This document shows, in pieces, positions 44,880 through 55,813 of a stretch of 64,000 nucleotides of DNA; the stretch's first letter is position 1, and the number at the start of each line of letters is the position of its first letter. The notes beneath the pieces were generated by a model, which saw only the letters and a program-made list of their open reading frames with translations, was not told the DNA's origin and ran no database searches. A program made the translations under genes and the position numbers. Source of the DNA: an uncultured virus (IMG/VR IMGVR_UViG_3300044858_002168) (Duplodnaviria; Heunggongvirae; Uroviricota; Caudoviricetes); the IMG/VR virus record IMGVR_UViG_3300044858_002168, positions 1 through 64,000 of that record. One strand, written 5' to 3'.

Positions 44880-44951
44880 TTTTATTAAGACACCGCACTT
44901 ACAGAGGTAACGCGTACCACGGCTAGATCTCGCCTCAATGTCTTAATAAAA
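44880..44951 (-). ncRNA. Stem-enclosed small RNA cassette
   Basis: ttttattaagaca / tgtcttaataaaa inverted repeat. Confidence 0.5.
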
Positions 44952-44952
44952 T

Positions 44953-45275
44953 GCCACATGATTTGTAACAAGGACATGTGGCCAAACCCTGGCTCAGCTA
45001 GTTTTTTAGGCTGCTAGAGCGTAAACGCTGTCGTTTGCATTTAAGTTTTTGCTGTTTCGGATTGAGAAACCCCAACCCTACGGCTTTCACATTGCCGGGT
45101 TGCCGTCTTCACTATCTCACGCTGTCGAAACCACATCCGGCCCATCAAAAACATATTAGTACACAGTTTTCCCATTTCAGGTTTTAGAGTACCTTATCGG
45201 GCTAATATGCTTTTGGTGGACCGGGGCGGGAATGATCCGCCGTCCAACATGCCTTCGATCTGACAGAATTACAAC
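44953..45275 (-). ncRNA. ssrA: Circularly permuted (two-piece) tmRNA
   Basis: The acceptor piece ending CCGGTCC-ACCA (45214) precedes the coding piece starting GGGCCGG-ATGTGGTTTCGAC (45143). G3:U pair; tag ORF ANDSVYALAA* at 45038-45006. Outer ends approximate. Confidence 0.92.
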
Positions 45276-45397
45276 CATATTCTACTACAATCGGGACTCG
45301 AACCCGTATGCGACCCGTTCTTCCTGGCCTGTCTACTCTGTATCCGGATTTAGGAGTAAACTATCGGTGTTCCAGTGTAGTCGGCTAAGTAGTGGTA
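45274..45397 (-). ncRNA. Small RNA with T-arm motif upstream of tmRNA
   Basis: CGGG-TTCGAGT-CCCG hairpin; 3' end AATATGGT resembles the cassette family. Confidence 0.45.
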
Positions 45398-48585: not shown

Positions 48586-48664
48586 TGGAGCGGGCAGGGA
48601 GAGTCGAACTCCGCGTTCTTCAGCTTGGAAGGCTGTTGGTGGCCCCTTCACCTTGTCTGCCCGC
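48586..48664 (-). tRNA. tRNA-Gly(TCC), atypical D-arm
   Basis: GCGGGCA/TGCCCGC-TCCA acceptor, loop CTTCCAA; lacks U8 and the standard D-loop. Confidence 0.8.
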
Positions 48665-50712: not shown

Positions 50713-50815
50713 TGGTAGAAGGGGTGGGAATCGAACCCACATTACTCCGCCTTATCTAGACGGTGCTCTACGAGTGTATAAGGCTCGCCCTTAGGCCAAT
50801 ATTAGCAACCCTTCC
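50713..50815 (-). tRNA. Atypical 103-nt tRNA-like RNA (TAT anticodon, very long variable arm)
   Basis: GGAAGGG/CCCTTCT-ACCA, canonical T arm, loop CTTATAC. Confidence 0.75.
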
Positions 50816-55157: not shown

Positions 55158-55250
55158 ACCATATTGAAACACACTCTTGGCTGTCTAAACACGCGGTTGA
55201 TCAGTCCGCTCACCTTTGCCCTATTGTGGGAGAATGTGTTTTAATATGGT
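55158..55250 (-). ncRNA. Stem-enclosed small RNA cassette
   Basis: accatattgaaacacactct / agaatgtgttttaatatggt, starting at the tRNA-Leu CCA. Confidence 0.65.
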
Positions 55251-55323
55251 GCCCCAGAGGAGACTCGAACTCCTAAAATTTGGTTTCTAAGACCAACACG
55301 TATGCCAATTCCGTCACCGGGGC
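55247..55323 (-). tRNA. tRNA-Leu(TAG), short variable loop
   Basis: Leu-type D arm and A73 but only 77 nt. Confidence 0.9.
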
Positions 55324-55326
55324 GAT

Positions 55327-55416
55327 TGGTGGGTTCTGATGGTAACGCTCCACCTGTCCAACTTCCACTCGGTTTAGGGACACCGGATTTACAGTCCGGG
55401 GAGTGGGGCAGAACCC
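55327..55416 (-). tRNA. D-armless tRNA-Tyr(GTA)-like RNA
   Basis: GGGTTCT/AGAACCC-ACCA, CCGGA-CTGTAAA-TCCGG; no D hairpin; non-canonical T loop. Confidence 0.75.
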
Positions 55417-55613
55417 TAGATTGATTGTTTGTAAGTCTTGATTGCGTCGGCATCTAGGCTACAGTAGACCCGGAACTTGTCACGACCAACCTCGTCGTAG
55501 AAGCGATTGGCCATGGACTCTAATTCTACAAGCTGTTCGATGGTGATCAGAGAACAGGCCAAAAACCTGCTCATGAATGCGTCAACTAGAAAGTCTTTGG
55601 TATAAGCAGCCAT
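55416..55613 (-). CDS. Hypothetical protein, stop overlaps the Tyr-like tRNA
   Basis: 65-aa ORF; the G of TAG is tRNA +1. Confidence 0.65.
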   Translation of the reverse strand: MAAYTKDFLVDAFMSRFLACSLITIEQLVELESMANRFYDEVGRDKFRVYCSLDADAIKTYKQSI

Positions 55614-55813
55614 TAACTCAGTACCTCATAGTCGTTGATGTTACCATGTTGGAACGTGTTCCACGGCTCTGCATCAATGCTCTGGGCAGTATAGCCTTCT
55701 ACATCTGTTATATAGGCACCCAGTTTTTTAGCAGCCCTGTACTCACTAGGAGCCCACACACAGTAGGCAGTCCAGTCACCTATTTCATCATAAACCCTGC
55801 AATACCAATGCAC
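55613..55813 (-). CDS. Hypothetical protein
   Basis: GGAG RBS, GTG start. Confidence 0.6.
   Translation of the reverse strand: MHWYCRVYDEIGDWTAYCVWAPSEYRAAKKLGAYITDVEGYTAQSIDAEPWNTFQHGNINDYEVLS

What the first reader, a model, noticed from the sequence alone, without database searches (positions are those of the whole stretch)
55327..55416. D-armless tRNA-Tyr-like RNA with a pseudoknot replacing the D arm
Seen: GGGTTCT-GCC-CCACTC-C-[CCGGA CTGTAAA TCCGG]-[TGTCC CTAAACC GAGTGG AAGTT GGACA]-[GGTGG AGCGTTA CCATC]-AGAACCC-ACCA. The acceptor and anticodon arms are perfect and A73 is present, but there is no D hairpin. The leftover CCACTC is exactly complementary to GAGTGG in the loop of the enlarged variable arm. 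The T loop has also lost TTCG. It is the only Tyr-anticodon RNA in an otherwise complete set. Inference: an alternative tRNA fold that is either functional in decoding or a decoy.
Basis: partly seen in the sequence, partly recalled or inferred. Interest (0 to 1): 0.8.

Follow-up and report, generated by a model that had tools for sequence, protein, structure and literature searches.

The report
Tyrosine tRNA with a knotted core
This phage's only tyrosine tRNA gene has no D hairpin and instead builds that helix by pairing a strand after the acceptor stem with the loop of its variable arm, a knotted tRNA design that is conserved in other phages and some bacteria and that I did not find described in print.

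Summary
Window 55416..55327 (minus strand) is a 90-nt tRNA-Tyr(GUA)-like gene with acceptor stem, A73, encoded CCA, anticodon arm and T arm, but no D hairpin. ARAGORN and Rfam's tRNA model miss it.

I found relatives in 15 other phage or metagenome contigs and in 5 of 151 sampled Planctomycetota genomes, giving 14 distinct sequences. The proposed 6-bp helix between positions 11-16 and the variable-arm loop is paired in 83 of 84 cells. Five of its six pairs change on both sides, in nine sequence versions. The crossing variable stem also covaries, so this is a true pseudoknot. G8-C79 is invariant, which gives an 8/4 acceptor/T layout.

The window's version is 97-100% identical in four contigs whose flanks are only 64-82% identical, so it is under selection and is not a decaying pseudogene. 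It sits where related phages carry a canonical tRNA-Tyr. No canonical tRNA-Tyr was found in the four phage tRNA arrays examined. Two bacterial carriers do also have a canonical tRNA-Tyr.

Most likely it is a working tRNA-Tyr with a rewired D-stem, possibly selected to escape nucleases that cut tRNA-Tyr. Charging and decoding are untested.

The parts
55327..55416 (-). Whole 90-nt rewired tRNA-Tyr(GUA) gene, including encoded A73-CCA
   Evidence: Sequence. Models R1 and R2 score it 109.6 and 88.3 bits. It lies 3 nt upstream of tRNA-Leu(UAG).
55409..55416 (-). Acceptor 5' strand (RNA positions 1-8, GGGUUCUG)
   Evidence: Pairs with 55331-55338. 112 of 112 cells are paired in 14 sequences and 7 of 8 pairs change on both sides. 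G8-C is present in 14 of 14.
55407..55408 (-). Two-nucleotide linker (positions 9-10)
   Evidence: Always two pyrimidines in the 14 sequences (alignment).
55401..55406 (-). Pseudoknot helix, 5' strand (positions 11-16, CCACUC); takes the place of the D-stem strand that leads into the anticodon stem
   Evidence: Pairs with 55365-55370. 83 of 84 cells are paired and 5 of 6 pairs change on both sides. An unbiased scan finds it among only three fully conserved helices.
55383..55399 (-). Anticodon arm (positions 18-34); anticodon GUA at 55390-55392
   Evidence: The 5-bp stem is paired in 70 of 70 cells and 4 of 5 pairs change on both sides. GUA and A37 are present in 14 of 14 and U33 in 13 of 14.
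55378..55382 (-). Variable-stem 5' strand (positions 35-39, UGUCC)
   Evidence: Pairs with 55355-55359. As a 4-bp stem, 55 of 56 cells are paired across 14 sequences in six sequence versions; slid controls give 10 of 56 and 18 of 56.
55371..55377 (-). Loop L2 (positions 40-46, CUAAACC)
   Evidence: Variable in sequence. Beyond a 4-bp variable stem it is 4-10 nt long across the family.
55365..55370 (-). Pseudoknot helix, 3' strand (positions 47-52, GAGUGG)
   Evidence: See the 5' strand entry. It is an island of conservation or compensation within an otherwise diverged loop.
55360..55364 (-). Loop L3 (positions 53-57, AAGUU); candidate stand-in for the D-loop G18/G19 contact
   Evidence: It starts with UGG in 12 of 14 sequences and AAG in the window type. 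The third letter, G, is invariant, as is the T-loop C at the position of C56. That these two contact each other is my inference.
55355..55359 (-). Variable-stem 3' strand (positions 58-62, GGACA)
55339..55354 (-). G63 plus T arm (positions 64-78 in the 8/4 reading: GUGG-AGCGUUA-CCAU)
   Evidence: The three inner T-stem pairs are kept in 14 of 14 sequences and the outermost is non-standard in 7 of 14. The window loop AGCGUUA differs from UUCGAUU/UUCAAUU in 12 of 14. Loop letters 1 and 5 are swapped, from U..A to A..U.
55331..55338 (-). Acceptor 3' strand (positions 79-86, CAGAACCC)
55327..55330 (-). Discriminator A73 and encoded CCA
   Evidence: A73 is present in 14 of 14 sequences. CCA is encoded in 11 of 14: all 9 phage sequences and 2 of 5 bacterial ones.
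55247..55323 (-). Neighbouring tRNA-Leu(UAG), the synteny anchor
   Evidence: ARAGORN and Rfam. Relatives L056, L061, L064 and L066 carry a canonical tRNA-Tyr directly upstream of the same tRNA-Leu(tag).

Best explanation
It is a genuine tRNA-Tyr(GUA) gene, maintained by selection, whose core is wired differently from the cloverleaf.

Shown by comparative analysis:
- An 8-bp acceptor stem is followed by two nucleotides and then a 6-nt strand.
- That strand pairs not with a nearby partner but with six nucleotides in the loop of the variable arm.
- This helix crosses the 4-5-bp variable stem, giving an H-type pseudoknot with the anticodon hairpin in its first loop.
- A 4-bp T stem completes an 8/4 acceptor branch.

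Inferred geometry:
- The 5' strand runs straight into the anticodon stem through one nucleotide, as D-stem strand 22-25 does.
- The variable-loop strand lies where D-stem strand 10-13 would lie and is followed by UGG (AAG in the window). This could contact the T loop as G18/G19 do.
- The six pairs could fill the height of a 4-bp D stem plus two tertiary layers.
- An L-like shape and the anticodon-to-CCA distance would therefore be kept while the chain connectivity is rewired.

Inferred function:
- The RNA is cut out of the tRNA-cluster transcript.
- It is charged by the host TyrRS through G1-C72, A73 and G34/U35.
- It reads UAY codons for the phage.

Speculative advantage: the variable arm, where Septu and retron-Eco7 PtuAB nucleases cut tRNA-Tyr, is buried in the knot. 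The phage copy would then survive tRNA-directed defence.
For: Structure:
- With 14 distinct sequences, the pseudoknot helix is paired in 83 of 84 cells and 5 of 6 pairs change on both sides.
- The acceptor is paired in 112 of 112 cells and the anticodon stem in 70 of 70. 0 of 500 shuffles reach the observed covariation score, and slid controls pair only 43-57% of cells (phage-only set).
- A scan of all column pairs finds only the acceptor, pseudoknot and anticodon helices as fully conserved helices.
- The variable stem is paired in 55 of 56 cells in six versions.

Selection:
- The window allele is 100%, 100%, 100% and 96.7% identical in L058, L063, L062 and L060.
- In the same contigs the upstream spacer is 68-82% identical and neighbouring ORFs are 38-87% identical. 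The element is as conserved as tRNA-Arg (98.7%) and tRNA-Leu (93.5-96.1%).

tRNA character:
- GUA, A37 and A73 are present in 14 of 14 sequences, G1-C72 in 13 of 14, and CCA is encoded in 11 of 14.
- These match bacterial tyrosine identity elements as reviewed in PMC9976931 (passages).

Place:
- It is on the same strand as, and 3 nt from, tRNA-Leu(UAG), inside the tRNA cluster.
- Relatives carry a canonical tRNA-Tyr in that slot.

Sole Tyr gene in phages:
- ARAGORN finds no tRNA-Tyr in the window (21 tRNAs) or in three other phage arrays (21, 19 and 28 tRNAs). Each holds one copy of this element.

Arms-race context:
- Septu and retron-Eco7 deplete or cut tRNA-Tyr at the variable arm. T5-type phage tRNA-Tyr counters this, and its distinctive variable loop is credited (PMC13096335 and PMC11555353, passages).
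- The window and its closest relative L001 have flanks 74-100% identical, most of them 86% or more, with tRNA-Leu and tRNA-Arg both at 100%. Their elements are different alleles, only 52% identical in that alignment.
Against: - Nothing here shows transcription, processing, charging or decoding.
- The RNA-library data are assembled contigs that also cover flanking ORFs and may contain DNA.
- Both Planctomycetota genomes checked (2 of 2: G137, G029) also have a canonical tRNA-Tyr. In bacteria the element is therefore an extra copy within arrays of irregular tRNAs, so bacteria provide no 'it must decode' argument.
- Irregular tRNAs in such arrays have been reported as charged but not used in translation, or as inactive (PMC5389517, passages).
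- All phage records are fragments (19-69% estimated complete), so a canonical tRNA-Tyr elsewhere cannot be excluded.
- The window allele has lost the canonical T loop, and the L001-type alleles have a weak T stem (U-U mismatch).
- The three-dimensional reading and the nuclease-escape benefit are inference. The host and its defences are unknown.
- Alignments A6 and A9 were fitted to a model that contains the helix. There are, however, no gaps in those columns, and MAFFT alignments A4 and A5 agree.
Confidence: 0.6

Rival explanations
1. It is a tRNA-shaped RNA that is not used for decoding. It could be a decoy or competitive inhibitor that soaks up a tRNA-Tyr-directed nuclease or another tRNA-binding defence factor. 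It could also be a regulatory tRNA-like RNA that binds TyrRS or another tRNA-handling protein.
For: - Bacterial carriers keep a canonical tRNA-Tyr as well, so the element can be dispensable for reading UAY.
- It travels in arrays of irregular tRNAs. Members of such arrays elsewhere were charged but not used in translation, or were inactive (PMC5389517, passages).
- The window allele lacks the canonical T loop.
Against: - A decoy for a nuclease that cuts the variable arm should keep that arm canonical, yet it is the most altered part.
- Features needed for charging and decoding are the most conserved: the full anticodon loop, A37, A73, G1-C72 and encoded CCA.
- In four phage arrays that cover most amino acids it is the only Tyr-anticodon gene.
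- It replaces a canonical tRNA-Tyr at the same slot.
Confidence: 0.25
2. It is a decaying tRNA-Tyr pseudogene that lost its D arm, and the 6-bp complementarity is a coincidence.
For: - A 6-bp complement arises by chance in 2.4% of shuffles of one sequence.
- tRNA finders reject it.
- The T loop is degenerate in the window.
- The MFE z-score is only -1.47.
Against: - It is 97-100% conserved where flanks are 64-82% identical.
- There are nine versions of the helix, all paired (83 of 84 cells).
- Compensatory changes occur in every helix.
- It is present in 16 phage or metagenome contigs, including the window, and in 5 bacterial genomes.
Confidence: 0.02
3. The RNA adopts a nested, non-knotted fold. 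Candidates are the single-sequence MFE structure, in which CCACU pairs with the T-stem strand GGUGG, or a 7-bp extended anticodon stem. In either case the pseudoknot would not form.
For: - The MFE of the window sequence uses the CCACU/GGUGG pairing.
- RNAalifold on a MAFFT alignment proposes an anticodon stem extended by C16-G36 and N17-U35, and no pseudoknot.
Against: - The MFE pairing is not possible in L001-type sequences, where the T-stem strand is UUAGG.
- The anticodon-stem extension is broken in 2 of 9 phage sequences and involves invariant letters.
- RNAalifold cannot draw pseudoknots, and MAFFT misregistered the variable region.
- Only the acceptor, pseudoknot and anticodon helices are conserved in all sequences.
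Confidence: 0.03

Closest known systems
Canonical bacterial or phage class II tRNA-Tyr(GUA), e.g. those in related phage contigs L003, L008, L013, L056, L061, L064 and L066
   Same: - Same anticodon loop, A73, G1-C72 and encoded CCA.
- Same place in the tRNA cluster next to tRNA-Leu(UAG).
- The window's T stem GGUGG/CCAUC is the same as in the L003 tRNA-Tyr.
- The L001-type anticodon and T arms resemble the tRNA-Tyr of Moogle-like Ounavirinae phages.
   Different: - No D hairpin.
- The D-stem-like helix is made with a strand from an enlarged variable loop, forming a pseudoknot.
- The branch is 8/4 instead of 7/5.
- It is not recognised by ARAGORN or Rfam RF00005.
(8/4) tRNAs and allo-tRNAs (Mukai et al., Nucleic Acids Res 2017, PMC5389517; abstract and passages read)
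   Same: - An 8-bp acceptor with a 4-bp T stem and a long variable arm.
- Found in bacteria and their phages, and in polycistrons of irregular tRNAs.
   Different: - Those tRNAs keep a D stem-loop (Sec-like long stem with tetraloop, passage).
- In the main text 'pseudoknot' occurs 0 times and tRNA-Tyr occurs only in the reference list.
- I could not see the figures or supplements, which may show more structures.
Mitochondrial D-armless tRNAs (mammalian and nematode mt-tRNA-Ser; PMC4013460, PMC7609411, PMC9427863: listings and passages)
   Same: [quoted passage not shown]
   Different: - In those tRNAs the D arm is replaced by a short unpaired connector, giving a flexible non-L shape, and they work with co-evolved organellar factors.
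- Here the connector is base-paired into a 6-bp helix with the variable loop.
- The setting here is phages and bacteria.
Engineered 'mini HisT' lacking the D arm in E. coli (PMC11551756; abstract and passages)
   Same: It shows that a bacterial aaRS, EF-Tu and the ribosome can use a tRNA without a D arm.
   Different: - It is artificial, has no compensating pseudoknot, and is limited by PNPase degradation.
[quoted passage not shown]
T5-type phage tRNA-Tyr that counters retron-Eco7 / Septu PtuAB (PMC11555353, PMC13096335; passages)
   Same: A tRNA-Tyr from a T5-like phage tRNA cluster. The variable loop is the feature credited with resistance to cleavage.
   Different: - Those are cloverleaf tRNAs.
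- No test links the present RNA to any defence system, and its host is unknown.
Pseudoknotted tRNA-like structures of plant viral RNAs, e.g. the tyrosylatable BMV TLS (PMC9976931, passages)
   Same: Viral RNAs that use pseudoknots to mimic tRNA and can be charged with tyrosine.
   Different: - Those are 3'-terminal parts of eukaryotic RNA virus genomes and are not used in decoding.
- Their pseudoknot builds the acceptor arm, not the D region.

Membership tests
tRNA (canonical cloverleaf; Rfam RF00005 / ARAGORN definition) | Acceptor stem closed by 5' and 3' ends, discriminator, CCA end | tested here: met
   The 7-8 bp stem is 100% paired in 14 sequences. A73 is present in 14 of 14 and CCA is encoded in 11 of 14.
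tRNA (canonical cloverleaf; Rfam RF00005 / ARAGORN definition) | 5-bp anticodon stem with a 7-nt loop, U33 and purine 37 | tested here: met
   The loop is CUGUAAA in the window. U33 is present in 13 of 14 and A37 in 14 of 14.
tRNA (canonical cloverleaf; Rfam RF00005 / ARAGORN definition) | T arm with a UUCRANY-type loop | tested here: inconclusive
   The stem and 7-nt loop are present. The loop is canonical in 12 of 14 family sequences but is AGCGUUA in the window allele.
tRNA (canonical cloverleaf; Rfam RF00005 / ARAGORN definition) | D stem-loop hairpin between positions 10 and 25 | tested here: not met
   The 10 nt between the acceptor and anticodon stems have no self-complementarity. A substitute helix is formed with the variable loop.
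tRNA (canonical cloverleaf; Rfam RF00005 / ARAGORN definition) | Scores above the family threshold or is called by the tRNA finder | tested here: not met
   There is no RF00005 match at E<=10. ARAGORN does not call it in five settings.
tRNA (functional definition) | Aminoacylated and used on the ribosome | not testable with these tools
   This needs charging, suppression or tRNA-seq experiments.
Bacterial tRNA-Tyr identity | A73, G1-C72, G34 and U35 (PMC9976931, passages) | tested here: met
   All are present in the window. A73 and GUA are in 14 of 14 and G1-C72 in 13 of 14.
Bacterial tRNA-Tyr identity | Long variable arm (class II) | tested here: inconclusive
   A 4-5-bp variable stem exists, but its loop is tied into the pseudoknot. 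Whether TyrRS accepts that is unknown.
(8/4) tRNAs / allo-tRNAs (PMC5389517) | 8-bp acceptor stem plus 4-bp T stem | tested here: met
   G8-C is present in 14 of 14. A 7/5 reading is impossible in 4 of 5 bacterial members and strained in the L001-type. The window allele can form either layout.
(8/4) tRNAs / allo-tRNAs (PMC5389517) | Sec-like D stem-loop (long stem, tetraloop) | tested here: not met
   There is no D hairpin.
Mitochondrial-type D-armless tRNA | D arm replaced by a short unpaired connector | tested here: not met
   The connector is paired with the variable loop in 83 of 84 cells. ARAGORN's mitochondrial mode does not call it.

The most novel reading that the evidence does not exclude
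Nature has a second working architecture for an elongator tRNA outside organelles. It is a topologically rewired, pseudoknotted tRNA-Tyr whose D-stem is assembled from the 5' connector and the variable loop. In this reading it is charged by ordinary TyrRS and used on ordinary bacterial ribosomes. It is kept by phages as their only tRNA-Tyr, and by some bacteria as a spare, because the knot hides the variable arm from tRNA-Tyr-cleaving immune or toxin nucleases such as PtuAB/Septu.
Probability: 0.3. Interest if true: 0.92.

Novelty: new variant of a known kind. Interest (0 to 1): 0.82.

Why it matters
Textbooks and recent papers hold that cytosolic and bacterial tRNAs all share the cloverleaf. 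[quoted passage not shown] D-arm loss is considered a mitochondrial oddity.

Here a tRNA-Tyr gene with a different chain topology is conserved, with abundant compensatory change, in several phage lineages and in Planctomycetota. If it is charged and decodes, several things follow:
- The L-shape can be reached by more than one secondary-structure topology.
- It offers a natural scaffold for orthogonal tRNAs.
- Standard annotation pipelines miss a class of tRNA genes, which makes phage tRNA sets look incomplete.
- It would give the phage-host conflict over tRNA-Tyr (Septu, retron-Eco7) a structural escape route that can be tested directly.

Tried and rejected
1. First pattern scan of viral contigs. 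It had one N too few: all 28 hits were unrelated coding sequence. The pattern was corrected, which found 11 hits, of which 2 were real and were the L001 and L002 contigs again.
2. Exact 5'-half pattern: 0 hits.
3. Genome contigs pattern scan: 26 stretches, of which 0 matched model R1. This route found no bacterial member; the model-based search did.
4. GenBank phage collection by blastn with three alleles: 0 records cover 80% or more of the query. Only anticodon-arm or T-arm similarity to ordinary phage tRNA-Tyr was seen. No cultured phage with this element was found, but blastn is weak for this purpose.
5. ARAGORN in mitochondrial, low-threshold and intron modes: it gave only spurious calls, such as an opposite-strand 'mtRNA-Val'.
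6. Single-sequence MFE folds: non-tRNA-like, not conserved, with weak z-scores. RNAalifold on a MAFFT alignment did not recover the pseudoknot or the variable stem.
7. Expression. RNA-library contigs from four studies carry the region: the window allele in X1 and X3, and the start of the L001-type allele as loose ends in X7 and X8. They are assembled contigs that extend into flanking ORFs and may derive from DNA, so I do not count them as evidence of transcription or processing.
8. Whether bacteria rely on it as their only tRNA-Tyr: rejected. G137 and G029 each have a canonical tRNA-Tyr.
9. A prophage origin for the G137 array: not supported by the 20 kb inspected, which holds clpX, topA and tuf-secE-nusG-rplA neighbours.
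10. Acidobacteriota sample: 1 of 151 genomes had a hit at E<=1e-8, and it was a tRNA-Sec, not this family.
11. A phage-encoded TyrRS or tRNA-repair enzyme in the window: none was seen among the 41 ORFs scanned.
12. The genome search 'relatives' is not available for a virus record.

Full report
**1. The observation**

- a 7-bp acceptor stem, extendable to 8 bp by G8-C79
- ten nucleotides with no self-complementarity
- a perfect 5-bp anticodon stem with loop CUGUAAA (anticodon GUA)
- a 28-nt variable region closed by UGUCC/GGACA
- a T arm GGUGG-AGCGUUA-CCAUC
- A73 and an encoded CCA

CCACUC (positions 11-16) is the exact complement of GAGUGG (47-52) in the variable loop.

ARAGORN finds 21 tRNAs and a tmRNA in the window but not this element. 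It also misses it in low-threshold, intron and mitochondrial modes. Rfam's tRNA model gives no match even at E<=10 on a 451-nt stretch.

On one sequence the evidence is weak. A 6-bp complement appears in 2.4% of shuffles. The MFE fold is a different, nested structure with z = -1.47.

**2. Setting**

The window belongs to a 72.5-kb IMG/VR virus record, estimated 69% complete. Its replication module is T5-like: family A polymerase, split NAD ligase, D5-like regulator, SbcCD-like genes and helicases.

The element lies in a minus-strand tRNA cluster, 3 nt upstream of tRNA-Leu(UAG). No other GUA-anticodon gene was found in the record.

The set is 'otherwise complete' only if an irregular Gly(UCC) candidate below Rfam's threshold is counted. 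I saw no aaRS or tRNA-repair gene in the window.

**3. Relatives**

The neighbouring UvdE-like protein gave 13 related IMG/VR loci.
- Six (L003, L004, L006, L008, L009, L013) carry an ARAGORN-detectable tRNA-Tyr.
- The two closest (L001, L002) instead carry an 88-nt homologue of the element in the same place.

A pattern tying a Tyr anticodon loop to the adjacent tRNA-Leu found, in metagenome contigs:
- four more copies of the window allele (L058, L060, L062, L063)
- four contigs with a canonical tRNA-Tyr directly upstream of tRNA-Leu(tag) (L056, L061, L064, L066)

The element therefore occupies the slot of a normal tRNA-Tyr gene.

Two further viral scans found L118 and L120-L129. These lie in fragments of other, larger phages with big tRNA arrays. 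In total the window plus 15 contigs carry the element, as 9 distinct phage sequences.

**4. Selection**

The window allele is 100% identical in L058, L063 and L062 and 96.7% identical in L060. In the same contigs the upstream spacer is 68-82% identical and the neighbouring small ORFs are 38-87% identical. It is as conserved as tRNA-Arg (98.7%) and tRNA-Leu (93.5-96.1%). This excludes a decaying pseudogene.

The comparison with L001 runs the other way. L001 is the closest genome overall, with tRNA-Leu and tRNA-Arg both 100% identical and most other flanks 86-99%. Yet it has a different allele, only 52% identical in that alignment. Alleles of this gene are evidently exchanged among related phages.

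**5. Structure**

With the nine phage sequences:
- the 11-16/47-52 helix is paired in 54 of 54 cells
- it changes on both sides at 4 of 6 pairs
- the versions are CCACUC/GAGUGG, CCAUUC/GAAUGG, CCCUGC/GCAGGG and CUCUGC/GCAGAG

I tested that with model R2 on 151 sampled Planctomycetota genomes. Five have full-length matches of 63-83 bits, and all other hits are at or below 34 bits. These add five more helix versions.

On all 14 sequences:

| Helix | Cells paired | Pairs changed on both sides |
|---|---|---|
| Pseudoknot | 83 of 84 | 5 of 6 |
| Acceptor (8 bp) | 112 of 112 | 7 of 8 |
| Anticodon stem | 70 of 70 | 4 of 5 |

No shuffle of 500 reaches the observed covariation score, and slid registers pair only 43-57% of cells.

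A scan of all column pairs finds only those three helices conserved throughout.

The variable stem that crosses the helix is paired in 55 of 56 cells, in six versions, against 10 of 56 and 18 of 56 in slid controls. This is therefore a true H-type pseudoknot with the anticodon hairpin in its first loop.

G8-C is invariant, and a fifth T-stem pair is impossible in most members. The family is therefore 8/4.

Caveat: A6 and A9 were aligned to a model that contains the helix. Those columns are ungapped, however, and MAFFT alignments agree.

**6. How it probably folds (inference)**

- The 5' strand continues through one nucleotide into the anticodon stem, as D-stem strand 22-25 does.
- The variable-loop strand runs where strand 10-13 would.
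- That strand is followed by UGG in 12 of 14 sequences, which could play the part of G18/G19 against the T loop.
- The third of these letters and the T-loop C at the position of C56 are invariant.
- Six pairs match the height of a 4-bp D stem plus two tertiary layers.

The window allele is the derived extreme. Its L3 loop reads AAG and its T loop reads AGCGUUA, with the first and fifth loop letters swapped from U..A to A..U. This looks like co-adjustment of two parts that touch.

**7. Function**

For a working tRNA-Tyr:
- The letters needed for tyrosine identity and decoding are the most conserved (PMC9976931).
- In the window and in three other phage arrays (21, 19 and 28 ARAGORN tRNAs) it is the only Tyr-anticodon gene.
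- E. coli's HisRS, EF-Tu and ribosome accept an engineered D-armless tRNA (PMC11551756).

Against:
- Nothing measures charging.
- All phage records are fragments.
- Both bacterial genomes I checked also have a canonical tRNA-Tyr.
- In those genomes the element lies in chromosomal arrays of irregular tRNAs (Leu, Tyr*, Leu, Ser, Cys, Ser) beside topA.
- Such arrays have been reported to include molecules that are charged but not used (PMC5389517).

A plausible selective reason comes from recent work. Septu and retron-Eco7 PtuAB cut tRNA-Tyr in the variable arm, and T5-type phage tRNA-Tyr evades them through a distinctive variable loop (PMC13096335, PMC11555353). Burying that arm in a knot, and swapping alleles, would fit such an arms race. 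This is untested.

RNA-library contigs contain both alleles but do not prove transcription.

**8. Novelty**

Seven full-text searches found no description of a bacterial or phage tRNA lacking a D hairpin or carrying such a pseudoknot. I also read passages of the most relevant papers (PMC5389517, PMC7609411, PMC11551756, PMC9976931), with the same result. Figures and supplements were not seen.

Earlier unchecked notes of this scan describe the same design in other genomes. I count them as leads, one of which I tested.

My verdict is a real feature and a new variant of a known kind (tRNA), of high interest.

Noticed in passing
window 50716-50815 (-): A 100-nt class II tRNA-like gene that Rfam scores at 34.4 bits and ARAGORN misses. 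By my reading it has a long variable arm and UAU in an enlarged (9-nt) anticodon loop. It aligns (73% mean column identity) with a 96-nt gene that ARAGORN calls tRNA-Ile(tat) in another phage contig (L131 10604-10699). It recalls the allo-tRNA(UAU) group of PMC5389517.
   Followed up: partly
window 48589-48660 (-): An irregular tRNA-Gly(UCC)-like gene: 23.4 bits, below Rfam's cut-off, and missed by ARAGORN. It has a 5-nt connector before a GGUG/CACC hairpin. It is the only candidate Gly tRNA in the cluster.
   Followed up: partly
window 44915-45306 (-): A phage-encoded permuted (two-piece type) tmRNA gene with tag peptide ANDSVYALAA. It matches Rfam's permuted and betaproteobacterial tmRNA models, which may hint at the host group.
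   Followed up: no
window 55247-55323 (-): tRNA-Leu(UAG) is only 77 nt, with a short, stemless variable region. More distant relatives (L003, L008) have an 83-nt version with a longer variable region. This is unusual for a bacterial-type tRNA-Leu.
   Followed up: partly
L130 2513-2584 and 3565-3639: The large-phage contig G003, which also carries the rewired tRNA-Tyr, encodes tRNAs with UCA and CUA anticodons. ARAGORN labels them SeC and Pyl, but at 72-75 nt they are likely stop-codon suppressors.
   Followed up: no
L135 1361-1993; L139 1175-1668; L165 9693-10325: Planctomycetota chromosomal arrays in the order Leu(cag) - rewired Tyr - Leu(gag) - Ser - Cys - Ser. ARAGORN places the anticodons at odd positions (31-37), so the whole array seems to consist of irregular tRNAs. 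In G137 it lies between topA and an R2K ATP-grasp gene, 5.5 kb from the canonical Thr-Tyr-Gly-Thr-tuf cluster.
   Followed up: partly
L068 273-360; L069 273-357: The tRNA-Tyr of Moogle- and Susp-like Ounavirinae phages of enterobacteria is missed by ARAGORN. GenBank records annotate it inconsistently: as tRNA-Tyr, tRNA-OTHER or pseudo, as tRNA-Asn in one record, or not at all. It does have a 3-bp D hairpin by my reading.
   Followed up: partly
window 55416-55813 (-) versus L058, L002: The small ORF at 55613-55813, between tRNA-Arg and the element, is absent from L058, L063 and L002 (188 gap columns). An RNA-library contig joins across it. It is therefore an optional insert in this intergenic region.
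   Followed up: no
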